Assembly (NCBI GenBank): GCA_018655275.1
Contig: JABIJZ010000002.1
Coordinates: forward strand, 195,748-235,747
Source of the DNA: Candidatus Peregrinibacteria bacterium
Lineage (GTDB): Bacteria; Patescibacteriota; Gracilibacteria; UBA1369; LOWO2-01-FULL-3
DNA length: 40,000 bases
Direction of reading: 5' to 3'
Below, in pieces: positions 6,680-40,000 of the stretch. The notes below the pieces were generated by a model. It saw only the letters and a list, made by a program, of their open reading frames with translations. It did not search any database and was not told the DNA's origin. The position numbers and the translations under genes are program-made. The number at the start of each line of letters is the position of its first letter. Positions within the stretch are counted from its first letter, which is position 1.

Positions 6680-7102
6680 TTATTTAGATACAACTTCCCT
6701 CAAAATCAAACCTATCCTCCCCCTAATATCAGAAGTTTCTTCATTAGAAACACCCTTCGTCAAATTTGAAAGAGCAAGTCCAAACCGATTCAACACAGCC
6801 GATTCTTCTGACTCCATACTCGCTTCCGGATCCACAGATGATCCTTCAACCACCTCAGGACGTACCGGGAAAAGATCCGTAATAGACCCTTCAGGCCTAC
6901 CACAAATTTCTTCACCCAAAAGCCGAACAATACCTTCAAACGCCAAATTCGCACGAACCTCAGGCCCCAATTCATCAGGGGTTTCACTATCAGCAAAAGA
7001 ATGTTCCATATAGCCTCTCAAAGAATCTGCCAATTCACGAAGACACACATCCTCAAACACTCCATCTCCCTCACTACCTTGTTTTCCCTTGTCTGCACTC
7101 AT
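6680..7102 (-). CDS. small acidic protein, paralog 2 of the triplet
   Basis: ORF 6680..7150. I prefer the ATG at 7102 (MSADKGK..) because it lies downstream of two promoters. Motifs SLRGYME and LFPVRPEV. Confidence 0.65.
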   Translation of the reverse strand: MSADKGKQGSEGDGVFEDVCLRELADSLRGYMEHSFADSETPDELGPEVRANLAFEGIVRLLGEEICGRPEGSITDLFPVRPEVVEGSSVDPEASMESEESAVLNRFGLALSNLTKGVSNEETSDIRGRIGLILREVVSK

Positions 7103-7131
7103 ATTATTATGGTTAAAATTTTCCGGGCACG

Positions 7132-7160
7132 ACTCTAATGAATCGCACAAACTTTGTCAA
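7132..7160 (-). promoter_or_regulatory. promoter TTGACA-17-TAGAGT (minus strand), proximal to paralog 2
   Basis: Read from the reverse complement. Confidence 0.45.
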
Positions 7161-7190
7161 TTTAAAATCACAACAAAGCATAAGAATGTT

Positions 7191-7218
7191 ATTATATACA
7201 CTTTTTCAAAGTTGTCAA
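7191..7218 (-). promoter_or_regulatory. promoter TTGACA-16-TATAAT (minus strand), distal to paralog 2
   Basis: Perfect hexamers on the reverse complement, preceded by GGGG. Confidence 0.5.
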
Positions 7219-7240
7219 CCCCTACCCCCTCACGAACCTA

Positions 7241-7705
7241 CTACATCTCTTTCGTAATAACCTCAGCAAGGACAGCTTCCACCCCACTTCTATAAGAAAC
7301 TGTAAGCAGTTCTGGTTGAGCAGCTCCACTAAACACGGCAGCAGCAAAAAGCACTTTCTTTTTAGCTTCCACTCCCCCTGAAACTGGAGTAGGCGAAGGA
7401 TCAGCACCATCACGAACCGGAAAAGCATCCTCAATAGATACAAAACCTTCAGGCAACGCCTCTCCCATCAATTCAACAATAGAACGATAAGCAAAATCAA
7501 CTCTCCTTTCTATACCTCCGCCAACATCACCATCATTTTCCTCATTTATAACATTTTTTTGCGCCCCAATATAATCCCTCAAAGCACATACAAGCCTCTC
7601 TTGGGGAGAATACGCTCTGTCATTTTCTTCAGCTAGCACAGCTCCTTGGACCAGCGCCAAGCCATAAACTTCCGAAACATCTAGATCACCTTCATTATCA
7701 GCCAT
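7241..7705 (-). CDS. small acidic protein, paralog 3 of the triplet
   Basis: 154 aa with motifs ALRDYIG and AFPVRDGADP. Has its own promoter. Confidence 0.65.
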   Translation of the reverse strand: MADNEGDLDVSEVYGLALVQGAVLAEENDRAYSPQERLVCALRDYIGAQKNVINEENDGDVGGGIERRVDFAYRSIVELMGEALPEGFVSIEDAFPVRDGADPSPTPVSGGVEAKKKVLFAAAVFSGAAQPELLTVSYRSGVEAVLAEVITKEM

Positions 7706-24329: not shown

Positions 24330-25262
24330 ATGAGTTTCATCAAAGACTTCCAAAAACTGTATTGGGCCTCTCCTGTTGTAAAAAACTGGACCAGGCAAAG
24401 CGAAAACTGCGAATACGGAGATATTTGTGTAGTCTCAAAAAACTGCTTCCTATGTTTCAACAGCTCAAACCTAGAAAACTGCTACTATTGTTATTCATCG
24501 CGCAAAAACTACGACTGCAACGGCCTAATGTTCTGCGAACACTGCACCATGTGCTACGAATGCATGGACTGTCACAGATGCAACAACTCCGACCACTGCC
24601 AAGACTGCGACAACTGCGCAAACTGCCAATATTGCTACGACTGCAAATCCTGTAACGACTGTTTTGGCTGCGCAAGCTTAATGCACAAAAAACACCACAT
24701 CTTCAACAAAAAACACTCAAAAGAAGAATATGAAGAACGCCTCAAAGAAATCCAAACCTGGCCCCAAGAAAAAATCGAAGAAGAATTTGAAAAAGTAAAA
24801 ATCTCAAAGCCACGATGCTACATGCACCAAACAAAATGCACAAACTGCATCGGAGACTACGTCGAACACAGCAAAAACTGCTACTGGATCTTTGACAGCC
24901 GCGACTGCGAAGACAGCTTCTACATCATGGAAGCCTGCCTAGAACACGGCTGCAAAGACTGCGCAGACTGCGGCCCCATCGCAAACAGCTTCGAACAATG
25001 CTACGACGTCTGCTTCGCAGGCTACCTCAACAACTGCCACCACATTTATTGGGCAGATTATATCTCAGATTGCGATTGGTGCACTAGCATTTGGGACTGC
25101 AGGAAGTGCTTTGGTTGTATTTACATGAAGAATAAAGAATACTGTATCTTAAATAAAAAATACTCAGAAAAAGAGTATGAGGAACTCACAAAAAAATACA
25201 AAAAGGAATTGTTAGACGCAGGTATTCAGGATCTCTACTCCTTAATCCATTACAAATGCTAG
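24330..25262 (+). CDS. cysteine-ladder protein, short form (about 310 aa)
   Basis: About 41 Cys by hand count, with runs of Cys every third residue and two modules each ending in the cap motif. I prefer the ATG at 24330 over the track's TTG at 24312. Confidence 0.8.
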   Translation: MSFIKDFQKLYWASPVVKNWTRQSENCEYGDICVVSKNCFLCFNSSNLENCYYCYSSRKNYDCNGLMFCEHCTMCYECMDCHRCNNSDHCQDCDNCANCQYCYDCKSCNDCFGCASLMHKKHHIFNKKHSKEEYEERLKEIQTWPQEKIEEEFEKVKISKPRCYMHQTKCTNCIGDYVEHSKNCYWIFDSRDCEDSFYIMEACLEHGCKDCADCGPIANSFEQCYDVCFAGYLNNCHHIYWADYISDCDWCTSIWDCRKCFGCIYMKNKEYCILNKKYSEKEYEELTKKYKKELLDAGIQDLYSLIHYKC

Positions 25263-25633
25263 CAAGACAAACAGCAGGAACACCAACTCACCTCAGGCCC
25301 GTTGAAGATAGTGGAGATGTTGAAAATACCGAAGCCGTTGAAAGCATTGAAGCCTTCATTACCGAATTGGTTGAAAAAGCAACAAATCACCTCGACAGAA
25401 CCCGTACAGACATAAAAGACTTAATTTCTAGAGTGATTCGTAAAGCAAGAAGTCGCTTACAAGAAAGCAGTGGAGACCGGGAAGCATTAGTGGACATGTT
25501 CCTAACTATAAAGACCGAAATTACTGCAATAGCAGGAGTGCCTAAGATCGCTGTAATGATGATTGCAGCTATCATATATACCAAAATCTTAGACATACAT
25601 AACGGGGCTGGAACAATCAAACCCACAAATTAA
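25256..25633 (+). CDS. hypothetical small protein with acidic N-terminus and a C-terminal hydrophobic helix
   Basis: 125 aa. Overlaps the upstream gene's end and ends 8 nt before the long Cys-rich gene. Hydrophobic segment AIAGVPKIAVMMIAAIIY. Confidence 0.55.
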   Translation: MLARQTAGTPTHLRPVEDSGDVENTEAVESIEAFITELVEKATNHLDRTRTDIKDLISRVIRKARSRLQESSGDREALVDMFLTIKTEITAIAGVPKIAVMMIAAIIYTKILDIHNGAGTIKPTN

Positions 25634-25641
25634 AGTAAATC

Positions 25642-27285
25642 ATGACAACCAATAATTGTAAAACCTGCTCAGCCAAATACGACATCACCCCTGAAGACGA
25701 GAAATTTTACGCAAAACTAGACCTTCCATCCCCCACTCTCTGCCCAATCTGCCGAAACAAACGCAGAATGGCTTGGCGCAACGACCGAAGCTTCTACATA
25801 CGAAAATCAGATAAATCAGATGAACAATTCATTTCAATATACCCAGAGAAAACTCCTTTCCCAGTATGGAAACCCGCAGAATGGTACGCAGAAGACTGGG
25901 ATCCCCGCGATTACGGCCAAGATTACGACTTCAACAAACCATTTTTCGAACAATGGAACGAACTCCTCCAAAAAGTCCCACGCCTAGGCATCGACATCGT
26001 TCACTGCGAGAATTCAGAATACTGCAACTACTGCGGAGACGACAAAAACTGCTACCTCGACATCGCCGGCGAAGCCAACGAAGATTGCTATTTCAATTTA
26101 TTCACAAAATACTCACGCGACTGCGCAGACAACACCTTTGTATACAAATCAGACCTCTGCTACGAATCTCTTCACTGCCACACCTGTCACAACGTCCGCT
26201 ACTCAATGCACATGGAAGGATGCGCAGACTGCGCATTCTGCTTTGACTGCAAAAGCTGCCAAAACTGCCTCTTCTCATACAACCTCCGCCACAAAAAATA
26301 CTACATTTTCAATGAAGAACACACAAAAGAAGAATACGAAAAGAAACTCAAAGAACTCAACCTCGGCTCATACAGCAACACACAAATAAGCCTCCAAATT
26401 TGGGAAGACAAAGTCATCAACAAAGCCATCCACCGCGACCAATACAACGTCCAAACCGAGGAATGCTCAGGCAACAACATCAAAAACTCAAAAAACTGCC
26501 GCGAAACATACAACGCAACAAACTGCTGGGACTCAAACTTCTTGTACGACGTCCTAGACACCAAAGATTGCTACGACCTCAACTATTCACTATACAAACC
26601 CGAAGTCGCCGCAGAGCTCATTTCTACACTCAACATGAGATACTCAGCCTGCAACATGGCCTCTCACTACTGCCACAACACATTCTACTGCGACATGGTC
26701 AACAACTCAGACTACTTATTCGGCTGCATCTCGATAAATCGCGGCCATTACTGCATCCTGAACAAACAATACACCGAAGAAGAATACAAAGAACTTTTCC
26801 CAAAAATCGTCACCCACATGCGCCAGACTGGAGAATGGGGCGAATTCTTCCCAGCCAAATACTCCCCTCCCGGATACAACGAAACCATCGCCCAAGAATA
26901 CTTCCCCTTAACCGAAGAACAAGCAAAAAAAGAAGGCTTCAATTGGAAACCAAAAGACAAAACCCCACCAAAGCCCCAGACATACAAAATTCCAAACAAC
27001 ATCAAAGACGTTCCAAAAGAAATCACAAAAGAAATCCTCGCCTGCGAAACCTGCGGCAAAAACTTCCGCCTCATCGAACAAGAACTCAAATTTTACCGCC
27101 GCCAAGAGATCCCAGTCCCCCATACTTGCCCAGACTGCCGCCACGAAGCCCGCCACCGCCTCCGCAACCCACGCATACTCAACCAACACAAATGCGGAAA
27201 ATGCTCAGCCCCAATCACAACCACCTACCACAAAGAACTCCCAAATATTTACTGTGAGAAGTGTTATTTGGAGAGTGTGTATTAG
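25642..27285 (+). CDS. cysteine-ladder protein, long form with N- and C-terminal Zn-ribbon caps (547 aa)
   Basis: N-terminus reads CKTC..FYAKLDLPSPTLCPICRNKRR. Two Cys-ladder modules follow. C-terminus reads CETC..FYRRQEIPVPHTCPDCRHEAR..CGKC..CEKC. Confidence 0.85.
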   Translation: MTTNNCKTCSAKYDITPEDEKFYAKLDLPSPTLCPICRNKRRMAWRNDRSFYIRKSDKSDEQFISIYPEKTPFPVWKPAEWYAEDWDPRDYGQDYDFNKPFFEQWNELLQKVPRLGIDIVHCENSEYCNYCGDDKNCYLDIAGEANEDCYFNLFTKYSRDCADNTFVYKSDLCYESLHCHTCHNVRYSMHMEGCADCAFCFDCKSCQNCLFSYNLRHKKYYIFNEEHTKEEYEKKLKELNLGSYSNTQISLQIWEDKVINKAIHRDQYNVQTEECSGNNIKNSKNCRETYNATNCWDSNFLYDVLDTKDCYDLNYSLYKPEVAAELISTLNMRYSACNMASHYCHNTFYCDMVNNSDYLFGCISINRGHYCILNKQYTEEEYKELFPKIVTHMRQTGEWGEFFPAKYSPPGYNETIAQEYFPLTEEQAKKEGFNWKPKDKTPPKPQTYKIPNNIKDVPKEITKEILACETCGKNFRLIEQELKFYRRQEIPVPHTCPDCRHEARHRLRNPRILNQHKCGKCSAPITTTYHKELPNIYCEKCYLESVY

Positions 27286-27911
27286 GTTCGATCAACATTC
27301 ATATTCCTGTAATCAATCTTCAGCTTGCCCCCCATATTCATAAACATCAGATAGTAAGACGTCCCGACAATCTTCATACCATAAAATGGTGACTCTCCCT
27401 TAAGAAAAGCCTCAAGACTCTCTCTACGAATAACTTTCTCATAAAAATTCTCAGGCAACATCGAATCATCATCAGTCTTAGTCAATTCACCATGCACAAC
27501 ATATTTAAAAACATTTTTTAAAACAGCTTCAGTCAACTCAACACTCTCAGCCTCTACAGCACGCCTCAAAGGTATATAATGTCGATTCAAAGCCGGATAC
27601 AGTCTCTTAAGTTTACTCCCTTCCTCAGCCACTCCCCTAACCATACCAGCAACTCTAATACTCTCAGGTGTAATTTCATCTTTTTGTTTTTGTTCACCAA
27701 TAGCCCATTCACCAAGCCCCACTCTTATATTCCTAACAACATTAACAACCCATTCAGGATCATTTGTCCTTCTACTACTGCCATCCCCAGAAACATATTT
27801 ATCATCCAAGCAACCAATAACAATCCTTGCCGCATCATCATGATATTGATCATCAGGTTTCTTCCCATCTGCCCCCACCGGAAACGCCCTTTCTTTTTGC
27901 CCTTCAGCCAT
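27282..27911 (-). CDS. hypothetical protein (209 aa)
   Basis: ORF 27282..28070, for which I prefer the ATG at 27911 (MAEGQKERAFPVGADG..). Its stop overlaps the convergent Cys-rich gene's stop. Confidence 0.6.
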   Translation of the reverse strand: MAEGQKERAFPVGADGKKPDDQYHDDAARIVIGCLDDKYVSGDGSSRRTNDPEWVVNVVRNIRVGLGEWAIGEQKQKDEITPESIRVAGMVRGVAEEGSKLKRLYPALNRHYIPLRRAVEAESVELTEAVLKNVFKYVVHGELTKTDDDSMLPENFYEKVIRRESLEAFLKGESPFYGMKIVGTSYYLMFMNMGGKLKIDYRNMNVDRT

Positions 27912-28000
27912 AATAAAGTGTTTAATTTTAGGGCTAATTAAATCACATACAAAAAGATAAAACAATGTGATTTTCAGAAGATTTGTTGTAAAATTGGCCC

Positions 28001-28936
28001 ATGAACGACCCAAAACAAATCGCCGAGAACTTCGTCCAACTCTACCGAGAATTAGTTCATCGCGAACCACACATTTCAGTCCACGTATGGCTATCCGACA
28101 ATTCCGACTATTGCGACCAAATCGACCGCTGCAAAAACTGCTATCTCGTTTTCAACAGTCTCCAATCCGAAGACTGCATGTATATGTACGACTCAAGATG
28201 GAGCAAAAACTGCAGCGACATATCTTACTGCAATCATTCAGAACTCTGCTACGACTCTCTCGATCTCGAAAAATGCTACAACTGCGACCACTGCCAAGAC
28301 TGCACAAACTCAAATGACTGCCAATACTCATACGATCTTCGAAACTGCAACAACTGCCTCGGATGCGCAGGCTTGAGACACAAAAACTACCACATTTTCA
28401 ACAAACCTTACTCAAAAAAAGAATACGAAGAGCTCACAAAAAAACTCCTTAAAAATCCAGGGAAAATCGAAAAACAGCTCGAAAAGCTTTGCCTCGAAAT
28501 CCCTCACGTCGCTCTCCACACCCAAAACACAGAAAACTGCTTCGGGAACTACGTAGTAAACTCCAAAAACTCATACTGCATCTTCAAAACACACAATCTC
28601 GAAGATTGCATGTATATGCACGACACCCAAAGAGAAAAAGATTGCATGGACTGTTTTGTAGGAAACGAATCAGAACTTGCTTACGGCTGCACCGAAAACT
28701 CCAAAATCTACAATTGTAATTTTTCATACTGGTGCGCCAACAACATCGATTGCGAATACATGATGTATAGCTTCAGCTGCAAGAACTGTTTCGGATGTTT
28801 CAACCTCAAACACAAAGAATATCGCATTCTCAACAAACAATACACGAAAGAAGAATACGAAAAACTCCTCCCAGAAATCAAAAAATCACTCCGAGAAAAA
28901 GGCCAATACATGAACTTCCTACCAGACGTAATGTAA
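28001..28936 (+). CDS. cysteine-ladder protein, short form (311 aa)
   Basis: Alignable with 24330..25262 and has the same two cap motifs (CLGCAGLRHKNYHIFNKPYSKKEYEEL and CFGCFNLKHKEYRILNKQYTKEEYEKL). Confidence 0.8.
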   Translation: MNDPKQIAENFVQLYRELVHREPHISVHVWLSDNSDYCDQIDRCKNCYLVFNSLQSEDCMYMYDSRWSKNCSDISYCNHSELCYDSLDLEKCYNCDHCQDCTNSNDCQYSYDLRNCNNCLGCAGLRHKNYHIFNKPYSKKEYEELTKKLLKNPGKIEKQLEKLCLEIPHVALHTQNTENCFGNYVVNSKNSYCIFKTHNLEDCMYMHDTQREKDCMDCFVGNESELAYGCTENSKIYNCNFSYWCANNIDCEYMMYSFSCKNCFGCFNLKHKEYRILNKQYTKEEYEKLLPEIKKSLREKGQYMNFLPDVM

Positions 28937-29772: not shown

Positions 29773-32700
29773 ATGAGTAGTAAAGAAACAGGTAGATGGG
29801 AACCATCTCAAAGCCAAATGGTTACACGCGTATGGACCCCTGACGAAGTCGAGGAACAAACAGCCCCCGAGGGAGAAGCTTTGCGAACCCTGTCCACAAT
29901 TTACAGCAGGAGAATCAAAATAATGGCCGCAGAAAAAGACGCCTTGCCAGGAAAACCAAGAGCAAAAAGACTTCAACAACTCATCGGGAAAGTAAAACAT
30001 GACATAGCAACAAAAAGACGCGCAGGAGACTCTCACGAAAACAGAATCCAATACATAAAAGAATCCGCAGAGATCAAAGAAATCCAAAGACTATATCTCG
30101 AACTCGGAATAGCAGAAATGATAGTGCTCGGAGATTGGAGCGTTAGCAGGACCAGCGAAATCCCAGAAGCAATGGGGATAGATTCCGGACCACACGAAAC
30201 AGCCCCATTTGCAACACTGGAATCAGAGATTCTATACTTCTATGAAGAACATGGGGTAGTAGATGCATCAAAACTAGGAGACAAGCTAATTCACATGGAC
30301 ATAGGGTGCGGAAATGCAGTAGTAGGACAATCTCTAAGAACCGACAACCTCACAAGTCCATTTGGAAACAACCGAACTTTACCAGACTACTGGGGAGAAG
30401 TAGGGTTCGCAGATAGAATGTACTTCTCAATCAATGACCTCATCGCATCATTCATAAAAGAAGAGCACAGAGAAAACCCAGCCCTTCACGAATTCATCAA
30501 CACAGTAGCAACTCTCCTCACAAGAAGACTTTACTTCGGGAAAGACAAACTTGACCCAACATTAGCAAAACTCCCATCAGACCCAAATCAAATCGTAAAA
30601 ATCTTCAAAAAACTACATTTTTTCATAAAAAACTTCAGCACTCTATTGAACCCAGATAAAAAAACAATGGTAGACGTAGAATTTTTATCTGACGAAGCAA
30701 GCCAATTGACACCAGAATGCAGAGAGTTAGTAGAAGAATATTTCTACGGCCCAGAAATTAGAGAGAAAATTGAGAACAGCACTTCAGCAGTATGGATAGG
30801 AGACCACCAAAATCGAACAATCTTTGTAAATCGCAAATTTTGCGAGATGACAGGTAAAACCAAAGAAGAGCTGAAAGGCAAAACTAAAGAAGAACTAAAT
30901 CTATGGCGAGCCACAAAAGGAAACCTTGGTGACCCAAAAAGAGAAGGAACACTAAAACTCGCAACTGGCTTCAATGCAAATGTAAACTTGCACTCACCAA
31001 GACTAGGACCTAAGGCAGTAATTATAACCATGCCAGGCGAAACAGAAGAACAACACCTTTCGCAGACCCTAATAACAAGTCGCGAAAGATGGCAAACCAA
31101 AGTCGAAGAGTACGAGAAAACAGCCTCACAAGAATTCCTCGACAAATACTTCAAACCTGAATTCCACGGATCAACAAAAAAACTAGATGAACAAATCGCA
31201 AAATTAGATGAAAAACTTGCAGAAGCCGAAAGAATCCGAATAGAAATCCACGAAGCTGCAAAAGCCGCATACGCAACATTCACACAGCCTATAACCCCTG
31301 ATGCACAAAAGACGATAGAATCAGAGAGAACAGCAGTCAACCAAAGAAGAACAGCTTGGGAAGACACCAGACAACAACTAACAGACGAAAGACGTCACCT
31401 AATTGACCAAAGAGACCTCCTCAACCTAGCAAGCCACGTGACAATTCACCCCCACAACGTAATACTAGGAGACTTCGACGAATTTGGGGAAATAATACCA
31501 GATCAACCCCTTATAAACTTAGCCACATTATTCAGGTCTAGCTCCCACGCAACAGACACTCAATACACAAAACTGACAGAAACAACAGCCAAAAGACTCG
31601 CACCCGGAGGAATCATAGTATGCGACGGCAAAAAAGAGTCATACACAAGATTCGAACGACTGGAAGAACTCGAAGCACTACAAAAAAAACTCGGCACAAA
31701 CTACAAAATAAGCGCAATTGTAGATACACAAGGAGCAATAAGATCTATCTTGATAGAACGCATATTAGTAACTAAAGAAAATAAAAAAGCATTCTTTTCA
31801 GACGATCATAAAGAAGAAGCATTAATCCCAGACTGCTCACTCATACCAATATCAGACGTTCAAACCCATCTACCTAGACTAGCATTCAAAAACCGCATAA
31901 TAAAAGCTCTCAAAGAACTAATCATAGATCCAAGAGTCAAAGCAGCACCAGAAGACAAAAAAGGAGATACCCTATTCCAAAGCAGACTACTTTTCAAAGG
32001 TATACACGAAATAATAGACGCAGTTGTAGAAAAAACTGAAAACCTCGACGAAGCAATCCTCCAAATAGCCCAACAATCAGACCTAGTTCGCCAACAACTA
32101 GACGCATCAAAACAAGGAACATCACTAATGCATCCGGACTTTAGAATCACAACATACCCTAGAAAAACCAAAACACTTTCGGAACCAACCAACGAAACAC
32201 GATCCTTCAGAGCCCAATCACTTCCAAGAAATCTAGACATACCAAACTTAAACCACCCAGCCATCGAATACCATAAGAGAATAGCAATAAATTGCTTACT
32301 AAAACTGAGACTATTCACAGGCAAATCACCAATAAAAGTAATTGAATTCGAAGGGTGCTTCACAAACACTCCAATGATAACAACATTACGAAACCTACTC
32401 GGACAAAACTTCGAAGACCTTGTAGAAATAGAAACCGTATCTCCTAACAACCCTGCTCCAAACATTGACGACAACACCATATATATCATCGGAGGCAGTA
32501 TAAAATCAGTCAACGACCCAGAAGGCAAACAATTCACACAAAATTTTTCACAAAAGCTACTAGAAAGAATCCAGGAAGGTGCCAACATACGAGCATACGC
32601 AACATGCTATGGATCAGAAAGTATATTAGAAGCCTTTGGAAACATGAGAGATAACCTAACAGTAGAAACAACACCGGGAGCCCTACAATTTGGAGCATTT

Positions 32701-33231
32701 CCAATAGAATTCACTCAAGACACCACCCCCTCAACAGAGCATCTAGCCGGCAAACAAGCAACAGTCACATTCACAAGAGGAGAATACTCAGAAGTAGAAG
32801 GCTATGAAGATGTCGACGACATGCAACCACTCGCATTCGAATGCAAAGAAGATGAACAAGGAGAACTAGTCACAGACCCATCCCGACCAATAAGCTTTTC
32901 ATTGCTAGACGGAGCAGTAATCACAGCCCAACCTCACTTCGAAGTTAACCTAAAAAGAGAACAAGACCTCGAAACCCTCCGCAGACACCTACAAAGATCG
33001 GCAAGAGAAACAACATCAGAATTTAGTCCAACACAAACAACCACAAACGAAAAAGAACGACACAAGTTCACAACAAACCCATCACACATCTACACTCACC
33101 AAGTAGATATCCCAGCTGTAAACGCCCAAGGTACAAAAACTCAATGGCTTGAAAACGACGTAGGAGCAGCATTATTTGCGCCAATACTAGCAACACACGC
33201 AAAAAAAACCTTAAACCAGCTAGCAACCTAA
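29773..33231 (+). CDS. 1152-aa multidomain protein: interrupted SAM-methyltransferase-like region, PAS-like region, coiled coil, and C-terminal class I glutamine-amidotransferase-like region
   Basis: Motifs: HMDIGCGNAVVG (aa ~174), AVWIGDHQNRTIFVNRKFCEMTG (aa ~339), a heptad-like Glu/Lys/Ala-rich stretch (aa ~430-550), LGDFDEF..AKRLAPGGIIVCDG (aa ~565-619), and IYIIGGS..AYATCYGSESILEAFG..AQPHFEV (aa ~903-1057). Confidence 0.8.
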   Translation: MSSKETGRWEPSQSQMVTRVWTPDEVEEQTAPEGEALRTLSTIYSRRIKIMAAEKDALPGKPRAKRLQQLIGKVKHDIATKRRAGDSHENRIQYIKESAEIKEIQRLYLELGIAEMIVLGDWSVSRTSEIPEAMGIDSGPHETAPFATLESEILYFYEEHGVVDASKLGDKLIHMDIGCGNAVVGQSLRTDNLTSPFGNNRTLPDYWGEVGFADRMYFSINDLIASFIKEEHRENPALHEFINTVATLLTRRLYFGKDKLDPTLAKLPSDPNQIVKIFKKLHFFIKNFSTLLNPDKKTMVDVEFLSDEASQLTPECRELVEEYFYGPEIREKIENSTSAVWIGDHQNRTIFVNRKFCEMTGKTKEELKGKTKEELNLWRATKGNLGDPKREGTLKLATGFNANVNLHSPRLGPKAVIITMPGETEEQHLSQTLITSRERWQTKVEEYEKTASQEFLDKYFKPEFHGSTKKLDEQIAKLDEKLAEAERIRIEIHEAAKAAYATFTQPITPDAQKTIESERTAVNQRRTAWEDTRQQLTDERRHLIDQRDLLNLASHVTIHPHNVILGDFDEFGEIIPDQPLINLATLFRSSSHATDTQYTKLTETTAKRLAPGGIIVCDGKKESYTRFERLEELEALQKKLGTNYKISAIVDTQGAIRSILIERILVTKENKKAFFSDDHKEEALIPDCSLIPISDVQTHLPRLAFKNRIIKALKELIIDPRVKAAPEDKKGDTLFQSRLLFKGIHEIIDAVVEKTENLDEAILQIAQQSDLVRQQLDASKQGTSLMHPDFRITTYPRKTKTLSEPTNETRSFRAQSLPRNLDIPNLNHPAIEYHKRIAINCLLKLRLFTGKSPIKVIEFEGCFTNTPMITTLRNLLGQNFEDLVEIETVSPNNPAPNIDDNTIYIIGGSIKSVNDPEGKQFTQNFSQKLLERIQEGANIRAYATCYGSESILEAFGNMRDNLTVETTPGALQFGAFPIEFTQDTTPSTEHLAGKQATVTFTRGEYSEVEGYEDVDDMQPLAFECKEDEQGELVTDPSRPISFSLLDGAVITAQPHFEVNLKREQDLETLRRHLQRSARETTSEFSPTQTTTNEKERHKFTTNPSHIYTHQVDIPAVNAQGTKTQWLENDVGAALFAPILATHAKKTLNQLAT

Positions 33232-35656: not shown

Positions 35657-37270
35657 CTACCACACCTCCCCCAAATAACATTCCTGACAATAGACCTTCC
35701 TGTCAAAATCTTCAGCAAACGTCGTCTGCACAACCTCCCCACACTTCGAACATTTCCGATCAAACAACTTACGCGGCCCCATTTTCTCCCACAACTTATC
35801 AATCCGCACAGCCGGCGCAAGCACCGGCAACGGCAAACCATATTTCTTATAAAACTTCACCTCCGCATCAAGATATTTGAACTTTTTCCCACTCTCAGGA
35901 CAAACAAAAATCTCCTCGTCCACCTCTTCAGCCAAACCACCCTTCTCCCCCGAAACCACCTCTTTCTCATCCATCCATTTCCAACCCTTTTTCAAAACCT
36001 CAGCCTTCTCCAAAGGATAAAACCGCTGAGCCATAGTGAAATTATAAGGATGCGGTGAATATTCAACCGGGAAAAACTCGCCATATTCACCAGTCCCCCG
36101 CATATGCTCAACAATCCGCTCCTTCAACGCAAAATACTCCTCCTCCGAATACTGTTTATTCAAAATACAAAACTGCTTGTGCTTCAACCCAGCACACCCA
36201 AACAAATTCCGACAACTCCTCAATTCAATACAATAATAAATATCCGTAGAAAACCACGGCAACTGCGAAAACTGCTGATTGTAAGCCTTCGGCCCCGCAT
36301 GCAAACACTCATACATCAGCTCCCCCTCATAGATATTCGTATCATAGCAATCCTTGGAATGATGAATGTCCGTGCAATATCGACAATCTTTGCAATTATC
36401 CACCCAATAACAATCCTTCACATTTTTGCAATTCGACAAATAATCCCCCGAGCTCTCCTCAACATTTATCAAAACTCCCGAAGGATAAACTTGGTCCTTC
36501 ATAAACTCATCAAATCGCTCCCGAGCTCCCTCCAAATCTTCCCGACGACCAGTAAAAATCTCTGCCCAAGCTTTTTCAAACTCCTCCTTCCCCACCGATT
36601 TATTAAAAATACAATATTCCTTATTTCTCAAATTCGCACAAAACAAACACTTCCGGCACCCCTTACAATTCATCAAAAACGCCGAATCATTACAATGAAA
36701 AACATTCTGCGAACAAAAAACCGAATAGCACTTCTCCGCCTTCCGCAAATCATACCCAATCTCCGAATCCCGCACAAAAATACACTCAACCATGTTCTTG
36801 CAATACTGAATATTATACCCGTAATAACAATCCCACGAGCCATCCATCTCATCCGTAAAATAACAATTTTTGTTGCGATGCGCACAGATAATATATTCAC
36901 TATTCGTATTCAAAACCGAATTCGAAATATGCCTCGGCACCTCCCTCGCCATCTCAAAAAACTGCTCAAAAAACGGCCGGTCAAAATCAAAATCCCGCCC
37001 ATACTCCATCGCATCAAACTCCTCAGACTCAAAACAATCATTGCAGTAAGCCTTGAGCCCCTCAATGTCCGGCGAAAACCACGACATCGTCGTCCGCTCG
37101 CATTTATCACACGCCCTCATAAAAAAATCCTTCCCCCGCCAAGCCCATCTCCGTCTCTCACGCTCCGCAGGACACAAAGTCGGCAACGGCGCCTCAATCT
37201 TGCGATAAAACTCCTGATCCCCATCAGTAATCTCAAATTTCTCTCCCGAAACTGCACAAATCTTTTCCAT
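35657..37270 (-). CDS. cysteine-ladder protein, long form (537 aa) with eroded Zn-ribbon ligands
   Basis: Collinear with 25642..27285, including the FFEQ linker, both cap motifs and GEYGEFFPVEYSP. The first ribbon at each end has lost Cys residues (CAVSG, CPAER, CPESG, LAPAVR). Confidence 0.85.
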   Translation of the reverse strand: MEKICAVSGEKFEITDGDQEFYRKIEAPLPTLCPAERERRRWAWRGKDFFMRACDKCERTTMSWFSPDIEGLKAYCNDCFESEEFDAMEYGRDFDFDRPFFEQFFEMAREVPRHISNSVLNTNSEYIICAHRNKNCYFTDEMDGSWDCYYGYNIQYCKNMVECIFVRDSEIGYDLRKAEKCYSVFCSQNVFHCNDSAFLMNCKGCRKCLFCANLRNKEYCIFNKSVGKEEFEKAWAEIFTGRREDLEGARERFDEFMKDQVYPSGVLINVEESSGDYLSNCKNVKDCYWVDNCKDCRYCTDIHHSKDCYDTNIYEGELMYECLHAGPKAYNQQFSQLPWFSTDIYYCIELRSCRNLFGCAGLKHKQFCILNKQYSEEEYFALKERIVEHMRGTGEYGEFFPVEYSPHPYNFTMAQRFYPLEKAEVLKKGWKWMDEKEVVSGEKGGLAEEVDEEIFVCPESGKKFKYLDAEVKFYKKYGLPLPVLAPAVRIDKLWEKMGPRKLFDRKCSKCGEVVQTTFAEDFDRKVYCQECYLGEVW

Positions 37271-39293: not shown

Positions 39294-39562
39294 CAACCTC
39301 TCAACAACTCGAAAAAGAAATCAAAAGAATCAAAGCCCGAAACAAACGAGTTGAACTCGACAAAGCCTGGGAAACAAGCTGGACCAGAAGAATCCTAACT
39401 CTAACCCTCACGTACTTAATCATATTAGTATTCTTCCTAGTAGCAAAACTCGAAGACCCATACGTAAACGCAACAATCCCAGCTCTCGCATTCGTCACAG
39501 GAACATCATCAATCCCACACTTCAAAAAATTCTGGACCAGATACATCAACAAAAAACGATGA
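39290..39562 (+). CDS. small membrane protein (90 aa, 1-2 TM helices)
   Basis: Hydrophobic ILTLTLTYLIILVFFLVA. ATGA overlaps with both neighbouring genes. Confidence 0.55.
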   Translation: MTTSQQLEKEIKRIKARNKRVELDKAWETSWTRRILTLTLTYLIILVFFLVAKLEDPYVNATIPALAFVTGTSSIPHFKKFWTRYINKKR

Positions 39563-40000
39563 CAACAAAAACCTGCAAATCTTGCAACAAACCCTTCGAA
39601 ATCACCCCAGAGGACGAAAGATTTTACAAACTTTTTGATGTGCCATCCTCAAACTCATGCCCCGACTGCCGACTCCAACGCCGATTAATGGAACGAAACA
39701 CCAAAAACTTATACTGGCGCAAATGCGACCTAACCGGAGAAAAAATCCTTTCACAATTTCACCCCGACCATCCATTCCCAGTCTACAAAACAGAAGACTG
39801 GTGGTCCGACAAATGGAACGCCCTCGACTACGGCGTAGACTTCAACTTCAACCGTCCATTCTTTGAACAATTCAAAGAGCTCCGCGACCGCATCCCCCAC
39901 TTCGCAATGTACGTAATCCACGGCACCCAAGAAAATTCCGAATACACCAACTGCACCGGCTATCTCAAAAACTGCTACATGATTTTCGAAAGCGACTACG
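39559..40000 (+). CDS. cysteine-ladder protein, long form, 3' end cut by the window edge
   Basis: Hand-translated and absent from the ORF track because no stop falls in the window: MTTKTCKSCNKPFEITPEDERFYKLFDVPSSNSCPDCRLQRR..YGVDFNFNRPFFEQFKEL..NSEYTNCTGYLKNCY. Collinear with the N-termini of 25642 and 37270. Confidence 0.8.
   Translation, partial: MTTKTCKSCNKPFEITPEDERFYKLFDVPSSNSCPDCRLQRRLMERNTKNLYWRKCDLTGEKILSQFHPDHPFPVYKTEDWWSDKWNALDYGVDFNFNRPFFEQFKELRDRIPHFAMYVIHGTQENSEYTNCTGYLKNCYMIFESDY

What the first reader, a model, noticed from the sequence alone, without database searches (positions are those of the whole stretch)
24330..28936. Every family member is an internal duplication of two Cys-ladder modules, each closed by the same ~25-aa cap motif
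There are eight copies of the motif C-[FL]-G-C-x2-L-[KR]-[HN]-K-x-[YF]-x-I-[FL]-N-K-x-Y-[ST]-x-E-E-Y-x2-L, two per complete protein. Examples are CFGCASLMHKKHHIFNKKHSKEEYEERL and CFGCIYMKNKEYCILNKKYSEKEYEEL (24330 gene); CLFSYNLRHKKYYIFNEEHTKEEYEKKL and LFGCISINRGHYCILNKQYTEEEYKEL (25642 gene); and LFCANLRNKEYCIFNKSVGKEEFEKA and LFGCAGLKHKQFCILNKQYSEEEYFAL (37270 gene). The Cys rungs diverge freely, whereas the cap is strongly conserved. This suggests the cap is a folding or terminating element, or an interaction surface.
Basis: seen in the sequence. Interest (0 to 1): 0.6.

Follow-up and report, generated by a model that had tools for sequence, protein, structure and literature searches.

The report
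Doubled cysteine-lined beta-solenoid with conserved cap
These genes belong to a large, unstudied protein family of ultra-small (CPR) bacteria. Each protein holds two copies of a very narrow cysteine-lined beta-helix, and the conserved "cap" motif is its last turn plus a following helix; the family's cellular role is still unknown.

Summary
**Observation confirmed.** A relaxed form of the motif occurs exactly 8 times in the six-frame translation of the window. There are two copies in each of the four complete genes, 144-150 residues apart.

**The duplication is real.**
- The two halves match at hhalign E 1.6e-50.
- Against shuffled controls the halves score z 5-28.
- 287 of 290 family proteins have exactly two modules, and the other three are truncated.

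**Anatomy of one ~142-residue module.**
- It has a lead helix, about nine rungs of 12 residues each, and a cap.
- The 12-residue period shows in the Cys autocorrelation (0.88 and 0.71 at lag 12).
- 20 of the top 50 coevolution couplings lie at separation exactly 12, against 1.8% expected.
- Cys sits at every third, probably inward-facing, position.
- The cap is the last rung (CFGC stacked by I-[FL]-N, with an invariant Asn) plus a helix that starts at S/T-x-E-E-Y.
- The cap is more conserved than the rungs (about 2.9 against 1.9 bits per column), but the rungs do not "diverge freely".

**Models and known families.** The AlphaFold2 models are confident (pLDDT 79 and 90). Foldseek finds no significant match, only other beta-helices. 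No Pfam or NCBIfam model covers the core, and I found no paper on it.

**Distribution.** The 1.2-Mb Peregrinibacteria-type genome carries about 22 old paralogs (34-42% identical to each other). They often lie next to TrmB-like regulators.

**Open and prior work.** Function is unknown. The scan has noted this family before on other DNA.

The parts
24330..25262 (+). Gene A, short form (310 aa, 41 Cys). Module 1 is 24336-24761 and module 2 is 24783-25208.
   Evidence: ORF; family HMM 357 bits; module alignment
24660..24731 (+). Cap 1 of A, from CFGC to EEY
25107..25178 (+). Cap 2 of A
25642..27285 (+). Gene B, long form (547 aa). It has a double zinc-finger cassette at the N end, module 1 (25942-26367), module 2 (26392-26817), a conserved GEWGEFFP/YNET segment, and a double zinc-finger cassette at the C end.
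   Evidence: PF13451 25.6 bits; AF2 pLDDT 90.4, pTM 0.89; orthologues at 53-88% identity
26266..26337 (+). Cap 1 of B. Here CFGC is replaced by CLFS.
26716..26787 (+). Cap 2 of B
28001..28936 (+). Gene C, short form (311 aa). Module 1 is 28031-28456 and module 2 is 28463-28888.
28355..28426 (+). Cap 1 of C
28787..28858 (+).
35657..37270 (-). Gene D, long form (537 aa). Module 1 is 36548-36973 and module 2 is 36104-36529. The first zinc finger of each terminal cassette has lost Cys ligands.
   Evidence: PF23477 29.6 bits; alignments
36578..36649 (-). Cap 1 of D
36134..36205 (-). Cap 2 of D
39559..39999 (+). Gene E, the N-terminal zinc-finger cassette and the start of module 1 of a fifth, long-form member. 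It is cut by the window end; the whole gene in the genome has both caps.

Best explanation
**What it is.** The core of each protein is an ancient tandem duplication of one module of about 142 residues. A module has three parts:
- a short lead helix (F..L....P);
- a very narrow parallel beta-solenoid of about nine rungs with exactly 12 residues per rung;
- a cap.

In the solenoid every third residue (rung positions 1, 4, 7 and 10) probably points into the core and is preferentially Cys. Ser, Leu or Val can replace it. Rung position 4 is the best kept.

**How the cap works.** The motif C-F-G-C-x-G-L-[RK]-x-K-x-Y-[CH]-I-[FL]-N-K-x-Y-[ST]-K-E-E-Y spans the last full rung, a final partial rung and the start of a helix. 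An invariant Asn takes the place of the ladder Cys. S/T-x-E-E is a helix N-cap box, and the helix packs back on the last rungs. I read this as a structural terminator. It ends the hydrogen-bond ladder, buries the open end of the core, and keeps the exposed beta-edge from pairing with other molecules. It is better conserved than the rungs because it is unique, whereas the rungs are mutually redundant.

**Shown.** The duplication, the 12-residue parallel stacking, the register of the cap strand, and the conservation gradient.

**Inferred.** Which positions face inward, the role of Asn, and the anti-aggregation role.

**Family role (inferred, weak).**
- The proteins are cytoplasmic and acidic.
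- Each of about 20 old paralogues has its own conserved surface.
- The long forms carry LIM-like double zinc fingers with basic helices at both ends.
- Many genes are paired with TrmB-like regulators.
- From these features I guess they are rigid binding scaffolds.
For: **Duplication.** hhalign E 1.6e-50; shuffle z 5-28; two modules in 287 of 290 proteins. N halves resemble N halves (35%) more than C halves (27%), so there was one old duplication.

**12-residue solenoid.**
- Cys frequency autocorrelation peaks at lag 12 (0.88 and 0.71), with a sub-period of 3.
- In mean-field DCA on 569 modules, 20 of the top 50 couplings in the ladder lie at separation exactly 12 (1.8% expected) and 6 more at 11. 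There is no antiparallel pattern.
- AF2 gives pLDDT 79, pTM 0.74 for C and 90.4, 0.89 for B.
- All Foldseek hits, none significant, are beta-helices. They include TmAFP 1ezg, which has 12 residues per coil.

**Cap.**
- Couplings 110G-122L and 106K-118E at separation 12.
- In the model of B, strands at 207-210 and 219-222 are followed by helix 229-239, and strands at 357-360 and 369-372 by helix 379-396.
- Asn is present in 99-100% of 576 modules; the cap carries 2.8-3.0 bits per column against 1.8-2.1 for the ladder.
- Helix-to-rung couplings 97-139, 103-139 and 109-135.

**Cys as core filler, not obligate ligand.**
- There are 5-25 Cys per module.
- Cys co-occurrence is highest at separation 12 and about zero at 6.
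- The four candidate ligands of the cap read CCC[CH] in only 44% of modules.

**Family role.**
- All cores are acidic and none has a signal peptide.
- Paralogues are 34-42% identical to each other, while B has orthologues at 53-88%.
- TrmB-like genes are adjacent in 4 of 6 cases in this genome and in other genomes and contigs.
Against: - I could not inspect model coordinates. Inward-facing positions, helix packing and handedness are therefore inferred from periodicity, coevolution and DSSP strings only.
- In the model of C, the region after cap 1 is not helical and has pLDDT 67-71.
- The helix-to-rung couplings are weak, near the 99th percentile of the background.
- Coevolution at separation 12 could be inflated by register slips between near-identical rungs, although the alignments are almost gapless.
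- The very high conservation of the cap (invariant Asn, Tyr at 95%) would also fit a shared functional site.
Confidence: 0.65

Rival explanations
1. The cap is a shared docking surface. A common partner would recognise the two identical conserved motifs of every paralogue, while the variable rungs give each paralogue its own specificity. Candidate partners are the neighbouring TrmB-like regulator or a VirD4/HerA-like ATPase.
For: - The cap is the best conserved part across paralogues that are otherwise 30-40% identical.
- TrmB-like genes are adjacent in 4 of 6 cases in this genome and recur elsewhere.
- A coupling-type ATPase lies next to one family gene.
Against: - The conserved residues (Gly, Cys, Leu, Ile, Asn, Tyr, and an S-x-E-E box) are typical of packing and capping rather than an exposed patch.
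- The cap strand coevolves in register with the preceding rung.
- The window cluster itself has no TrmB or ATPase neighbour, and its intervening ORFs are orphans.
Confidence: 0.2
2. The cap is a zinc knuckle. C-x2-C-x2-C plus the Cys/His eight residues later would bind one Zn that locks the end of each module.
For: - C-F-G-C-x-G resembles rubredoxin-type knuckles; I rely on my own knowledge for this.
- The three Cys are 92-97% conserved in homologues of C.
- The fourth position is Cys or His in most modules.
- The four positions read CCCC or CCCH in 251 of 569 modules.
Against: - 56% of modules lack a full ligand set. CCCY occurs 66 times and SLCC 55 times.
- The widely conserved orthologue group of B has CLFS in cap 1.
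- By the 12-residue register, these Cys are ordinary ladder positions 1, 4 and 7 of rung 8 and position 4 of rung 9.
Confidence: 0.15
3. The Cys ladder is the functional part. It would be a metal-storing, iron-sulfur or redox-active column along the solenoid core, like a metallothionein, a polyferredoxin or a disulfide-stapled TmAFP.
For: - Cys content is 8-13%, with up to four Cys per 12-residue rung in the last rungs.
- Cys stacks along the axis, with co-occurrence highest at separation 12.
Against: - Cys number varies from 5 to 25 per module, and Ser, Leu or Val replace Cys freely at most positions.
- There is no co-occurrence at separation 6, which TmAFP-type cross-coil disulfides would require.
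- There is no ferredoxin-type CxxCxxCxxxCP motif and no Pfam hit.
- The proteins have no signal peptide.
- No radical-SAM gene lies next to any member.
Confidence: 0.12
4. It is not a solenoid. The core would be a string of small CxxC zinc knuckles or beta-hairpins, and the apparent duplication would reflect only low-complexity Cys-rich composition.
For: In the AF2 model of C, DSSP gives 10-residue strands separated by 2-residue breaks, which could be read as hairpins. Cys-rich composition can also inflate alignment scores.
Against: - Composition-preserving shuffles never reach the real scores.
- Coevolution is at i, i+12, with no i+j = constant pattern.
- The halves align over non-Cys positions too (lead helix, Pro, N/D, Tyr).
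- Foldseek returns only beta-helices.
Confidence: 0.04

Closest known systems
Tenebrio molitor antifreeze protein TmAFP (PDB 1EZG, 1L1I)
   Same: - Both are 12-residue-per-coil beta-helices.
- In TmAFP every third residue faces a very narrow core that contains Cys; I rely on my own knowledge of TmAFP for this.
- Among the non-significant Foldseek hits to the C model, TmAFP has the highest target-normalised TM-scores (0.33-0.36).
   Different: - There is no significant structural or sequence match (E 1.5-1.8).
- The T-C-T ice-binding face is absent.
- There is no Cys co-occurrence at i/i+6, so there is no sign of cross-coil disulfides.
- The proteins here have no signal peptide and are acidic and bacterial.
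- They carry two capped modules, and zinc fingers in the long forms.
Other capped beta-solenoids: pentapeptide-repeat proteins (Qnr, MfpA), the CARP/TBCC beta-helix, hexapeptide LbH enzymes (LpxD, GlmU, gamma-carbonic anhydrase)
   Same: They are parallel beta-helices whose ends are closed by non-repeat elements. They make up nearly all of the Foldseek hit lists for the solenoid part. Qnr and MfpA also have an acidic surface; I rely on my own knowledge for this.
   Different: - The period is 12, not 5x4 or 6x3.
- There are no Pfam hits to Pentapeptide or Hexapep.
- All Foldseek E-values are at least 0.09, with TM at most 0.25.
PF13451 zf_Tbcl and PF23477 zf_Tbcl_2 / TIGR04272 (probable treble-clef zinc fingers)
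   Same: The terminal cassettes of long forms B and D pass the Pfam gathering scores. BFVD hits labelled zinc-ribbon proteins probably fall on these cassettes.
   Different: These models cover only the termini of the long forms. They do not cover the duplicated core or the cap that the finding is about.
phrog_15341 / Campylobacter phage CP220 gp032 (123-aa hypothetical protein)
   Same: It is a single CxxC ladder with Cys at every third residue, ending in D-C-F-G-C-x-G-[IL]. hhalign gives probability 96.8%, E 2.9e-10, over 40 columns.
   Different: - It has one module only.
- It lacks the I-x-N-K ... S-K-E-E-Y part of the cap and the lead helix.
- The match may be partly compositional.
- Its function is also unknown.

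Membership tests
TmAFP-type 12-residue beta-helix | 12-residue repeat stacked in parallel | tested here: met
   Cys autocorrelation at lag 12 is 0.88 and 0.71. 40% of the top couplings lie at separation 12.
TmAFP-type 12-residue beta-helix | Cys pair at i and i+6 forming a disulfide across each coil | tested here: not met
   Cys co-occurrence at separation 6 is -0.03, against 0.15 at separation 12. There is no signal peptide.
TmAFP-type 12-residue beta-helix | T-C-T ice-binding face and significant structural similarity | tested here: not met
   The rung consensus is [KE]-[ND]-C-Y, not T-C-T. Foldseek E 1.5-1.8, TM 0.33-0.36.
Hexapeptide (LbH) and pentapeptide repeat proteins | Match to the Pfam repeat models; period of 18 or 20 residues per coil | tested here: not met
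   No Pfam hit at E <= 1 on the cores. The period is 12.
PF13451 / PF23477 treble-clef zinc fingers (termini of long forms only) | Score above the Pfam gathering threshold | tested here: met
   B scores 25.6 bits against a cut-off of 24. D scores 29.6 against 27. E scores 15.3, below the cut-off.
Metallothionein-like, polyferredoxin or other metal-binding Cys proteins | Conserved complete ligand sets | tested here: not met
   There are 5-25 Cys per module. A full set in the cap is present in 44% of modules only. There are no Fe-S Pfam hits.
Metallothionein-like, polyferredoxin or other metal-binding Cys proteins | Bound metal | not testable with these tools
   This needs ICP-MS or spectroscopy on purified protein.
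Cys-rich substrates of radical-SAM maturases (CrpA-like, PMC13692751) | Adjacent radical-SAM/SPASM gene | tested here: not met
   The five PF04055 genes of the genome are all far from family members.
Large extracellular Cys-rich proteins of Peribacteria (PMC4736985) | Signal peptide and a length of about 1,650 aa | tested here: not met
   The members here are 310-550 aa, with no hydrophobic N-termini.

The most novel reading that the evidence does not exclude
**First reading.** The every-third-residue Cys column inside a 12-residue solenoid is not mere packing. In the cell it would hold a stacked line of metal ions or act as a redox-active thiol column. About 20 individually conserved paralogues would then be specific sensors or adaptors working with their neighbouring TrmB-like regulators.

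**Second reading.** Alternatively, the family is a CPR-specific set of rigid adaptors feeding clients to soluble VirD4/HerA-like ATPases.

Either reading would define a new kind of bacterial system built on a new fold variant.
Probability: 0.1. Interest if true: 0.85.

Novelty: new variant of a known kind. Interest (0 to 1): 0.55.

Why it matters
- **Size.** The family is big. It has 3779 clusters at 50% identity and more than 6000 at 90% identity. It accounts for about 22 genes, roughly 2.5% of the DNA, in a 1.2-Mb genome.
- **Conservation.** Each paralogue is kept under purifying selection across a whole branch of CPR bacteria.
- **No prior description.** The core has no Pfam or NCBIfam model, no solved relative, and no paper that I could find.
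- **What this report adds.** A clear domain definition (lead helix, nine 12-residue rungs, cap, present twice) gives a basis for a family model. It also supports construct design for structure work and tests of what these organisms spend so much of a tiny genome on.
- **Protein design.** A 12-residue Cys-lined solenoid with a well-defined natural cap is also of interest for protein design.

Tried and rejected
- **Family libraries.** Pfam, NCBIfam and PADLOC give nothing on the cores.
- **PDB sequence search.** Nothing for the cores. The terminal cassette profile gave only a weak LIM-domain hit (CRIP, E 0.023).
- **Foldseek.** Both models were searched against PDB, and model B also against BFVD. 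There were no significant matches.
- **Single-module relatives.** A search with a half-length query found only two proteins of 240-261 aa that look truncated.
- **Radical-SAM maturation.** Rejected on genomic context.
- **Conserved small partner genes in the window cluster.** Rejected. ORFs 25256-25633 and 27282-28070 have no match in 20 relatives and no paralogues near other family members.
- **Inter-module contacts.** DCA on the whole core was underpowered. There were only weak hints of side-by-side packing, which I did not use.
- **Literature.** Four searches found no description of the family.
Full report
**Where and what.** The window is part of a 1.2-Mb, 98.9%-complete genome of a Peregrinibacteria-type CPR bacterium (window = contig C6:195748-235747). 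Named homologues come from Peregrinibacteria, Gracilibacteria and "Patescibacteria group" bins. Downstream of a ribosomal-protein block the window holds five members of one family:

| Gene | Coordinates | Strand | Length | Form |
|---|---|---|---|---|
| A | 24330-25262 | + | 310 aa | short |
| B | 25642-27285 | + | 547 aa | long |
| C | 28001-28936 | + | 311 aa | short |
| D | 35657-37270 | - | 537 aa | long |
| E | 39559-39999 | + | cut by the window end | long |

 D and E lie outside the coordinates given in the finding.

**Check of the observation.**
The relaxed core I-[FL]-N-[KE]-x2-[STG]-x-[EK]-E-[YF] matches exactly eight sites in the six-frame translation of the window. There are two per complete gene, 144-150 residues apart, and none elsewhere.
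- The eight half-proteins align almost without gaps over 142 residues.
- Within each protein the N half against the C half scores far above 200 composition-preserving shuffles: z is 28, 12.8, 5.2 and 14.0 for C, A, B and D. The signal survives removal of the last 40 residues (z 17, 4.7, 2.8, 4.9).
- For 66 short-form homologues, the N-half profile against the C-half profile gives hhalign probability 100%, E 1.6e-50, over 139 columns.
- N halves are closer to N halves (35%) and C halves to C halves (31%) than N to C (27%). There was thus one duplication, older than the paralogues.

**"Every member".** Of 290 family proteins in hand, 287 have exactly two modules. The other three are truncated: one at a contig end and two of 240-261 aa. 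A profile of the eight window modules finds 3779 clusters at 50% identity (1235 at E <= 1e-30). All 150 best have two matched stretches, or three in a few cases. A search restricted to half-length proteins found no convincing single-module relative. Weaker matches below the top 150 could not be inspected.

**Anatomy of a module.**
- In 120 homologues of C, Cys frequency has an autocorrelation of 0.88 (module 1) and 0.71 (module 2) at lag 12, with a sub-period of 3.
- Written in rows of 12, Cys falls at rung positions 1, 4, 7 and 10. Position 4 is kept in 83-97% of sequences in module 1. It is flanked by [KE]-[ND] before and Tyr after.
- Mean-field DCA on 569 modules (effective number 536) puts 20 of the 50 strongest couplings inside the ladder at separation exactly 12, against 1.8% expected. 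Six more are at 11, next to a one-residue deletion. There is no antiparallel pattern.
- This points to parallel, in-register stacking of 12-residue coils, a beta-solenoid, on grounds largely separate from AlphaFold (though both draw on coevolution among homologues).
- Counting position-4 residues gives about nine rungs per module. They are preceded by a helix that ends in a nearly invariant Pro.

**Structure models.**
- AlphaFold2 gives pLDDT 79, pTM 0.74 for C with 120 homologues.
- It gives pLDDT 90.4, pTM 0.89 for B with 150.
- Foldseek against the PDB finds nothing significant for either model; the best E-values are 0.69 and 0.09.
- The hit lists are almost entirely beta-helices. They include TBCC/CARP, Qnr, the 12-residue TmAFP (TM 0.33-0.36 on the target), tailspikes, LpxD, GlmU and gamma-carbonic anhydrase.
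- BFVD gives only non-significant hits, the best of them zinc-ribbon proteins that probably match the terminal fingers.

**What the cap is.**
- The couplings 110G-122L and 106K-118E (separation 12) show that the I-[FL]-N strand stacks on the C-F-G-C rung.
- The Cys/His just before Ile is simply position 4 of a last rung. The invariant Asn (99-100% of 576 modules) sits where the ladder would have its position-7 Cys.
- In the confident model of B each cap reads strand, strand, short strand, then helix. These are 207-210, 219-222, 225-226 and helix 229-239 for cap 1. For cap 2 they are 357-360, 369-372, 375-376 and helix 379-396. The helix starts at the [ST]-x-E-E-Y box.
- Weak couplings 97-139, 103-139 and 109-135 suggest that the helix lies back along rungs 7-8.
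- The cap carries 2.8-3.0 bits per column against 1.8-2.1 for the ladder. Among the eight window copies, identity is 50% in the cap against 24% in the body.
- I read the cap as the structural terminator of the solenoid: last rung, Asn plug and helix. It is conserved because it is unique, while the rungs are redundant.

**Are the cysteines ligands?** Probably not obligate ones.
- Modules carry 5-25 Cys, with a median of 14.
- Cys presence correlates at separation 12 (0.15) and at 3 and 9 (0.11). It does not correlate at 6 (-0.03), which TmAFP-type cross-coil disulfides would need.
- The four candidate ligands of a cap zinc site are CCCC or CCCH in only 44% of modules. CCCY and SLCC are common variants.
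- The widely conserved orthologue group of B has C-L-F-S in cap 1.
- There is no signal peptide, no adjacent radical-SAM gene, and no Fe-S or other Pfam hit.
- Cys therefore looks like the preferred small filler of a very narrow core. Metal binding is not excluded and cannot be tested here.

**The family.**
- No Pfam, NCBIfam or PADLOC model covers the core. No solved structure is related by sequence. Four literature searches found no description.
- The Cys-rich proteins reported for Peribacteria are large and extracellular, and therefore different.
- The long forms add a double zinc-finger cassette at each end. It matches PF13451 and PF23477/TIGR04272 and has weak LIM-like similarity. The Arg residues of its helix are nearly invariant. 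In D the first finger of each cassette has lost Cys.
- The genome carries about 22 members, 10 short and 12 long. All have acidic cores, with net charge -5 to -29.
- The nearest paralogues are only 34-42% identical. B has orthologues at 53-88% identity and C at up to 82%. The paralogues are therefore old and individually conserved, not a fast-evolving array.
- In a sample of 301 genomes of the phylum, 17 hold the family. It is patchy by lineage, usually present in many copies, and often in tandem.
- One phage family gives a partial match. This is phrog_15341, for example Campylobacter phage CP220 gp032, a single CxxC ladder ending in D-C-F-G-C-x-G. hhalign gives 96.8% over 40 columns.

**Context.**
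- Inside the window the genes between family members are orphans, with no match in 20 relatives. Other neighbours are unrelated: a Rel/PAS-GAF pair, a toxin-antitoxin pair and an aminotransferase.
- Elsewhere a pattern recurs. Four of the six TrmB-like regulators of this genome lie directly beside a family gene, either divergent or just upstream.
- I estimate, as an inference, that the chance of this is about 3e-5.
- The same arrangement appears in three other genomes and in two unrelated metagenome contigs. Two further contexts lack it.
- One family gene sits directly upstream of a 761-aa VirD4/HerA-like ATPase.
- These links were first suggested by earlier notes of this scan on other genomes, and I verified them here.
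- They suggest dedicated regulation but do not reveal the function.

**Verdict.**
- The object is a new variant of a known kind. It is a capped beta-solenoid with an unusual 12-residue Cys-lined coil, duplicated in tandem, in a large undescribed CPR family.
- The scan had already met this family on other DNA and reached a similar structural reading. I arrived at the 12-residue reading before reading those notes.
- The cellular role remains unknown. My best guess is a set of rigid, paralogue-specific binding scaffolds under TrmB-like control.

Noticed in passing
own genome C5:100686-101465, C6:77496-78413, C6:81938-82684, C6:~145800-146630 (loci L004-L006); also L008:4277-5026 and L009:6086-6835: TrmB-like wHTH regulators of about 250 aa lie immediately beside Cys-ladder family genes, either divergent or just upstream. 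This holds for 4 of the 6 TrmB paralogues in this genome and recurs in other genomes and metagenome contigs. None lies inside the window.
   Followed up: partly
L004:1794-4079 (-) = own genome C6:73793-76078: A 761-aa soluble VirD4/TraD/HerA-like ATPase lies directly downstream of a short family gene. The surrounding cluster has three family genes and two TrmB-like genes.
   Followed up: partly
L004:6414-6980 and 6977-7456 (-): Two paralogous small Cys-rich ORFs (188 and 159 aa, 30% identical) carry a C-x-G-C-C motif. They lie between family genes and have no Pfam hit.
   Followed up: no
window 35657-37270 (-), gene D: The first zinc finger of both terminal cassettes has lost Cys ligands (C-x2-S and A-P-A-x instead of C-x2-C and C-P-x-C). 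The second finger and the F-Y/P-x-P spacing are kept.
   Followed up: partly
window 25256-25633 (+) and 27282-28070 (-): Two ORFs wedged between family genes have no match in 20 related genomes and no family hits. The first overlaps the stop of A by 7 nt and ends 9 nt before B. They are either orphan genes or not genes.
   Followed up: partly
window 29773-33231 (+): A 1152-aa protein has only a short PAS hit (residues 331-378) and is otherwise unassigned.
   Followed up: no
B residues 396-425 (window about 26827-26916) and the C-terminal ends of the short forms: A strongly conserved segment, G-E-W-G-E-F-F-P ... S-P-x-G-Y-N-E-T-x-A-x-E-Y-x-P, follows the second cap helix. Many of its positions are nearly invariant among homologues of B. 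Its role is unknown.
   Followed up: no
L003:2399-2770 (Campylobacter phage CP220 gp032): A 123-aa phage protein consists of one CxxC ladder ending in D-C-F-G-C-x-G. It lies between the portal and DNA ligase genes and may be a single-module relative.
   Followed up: partly
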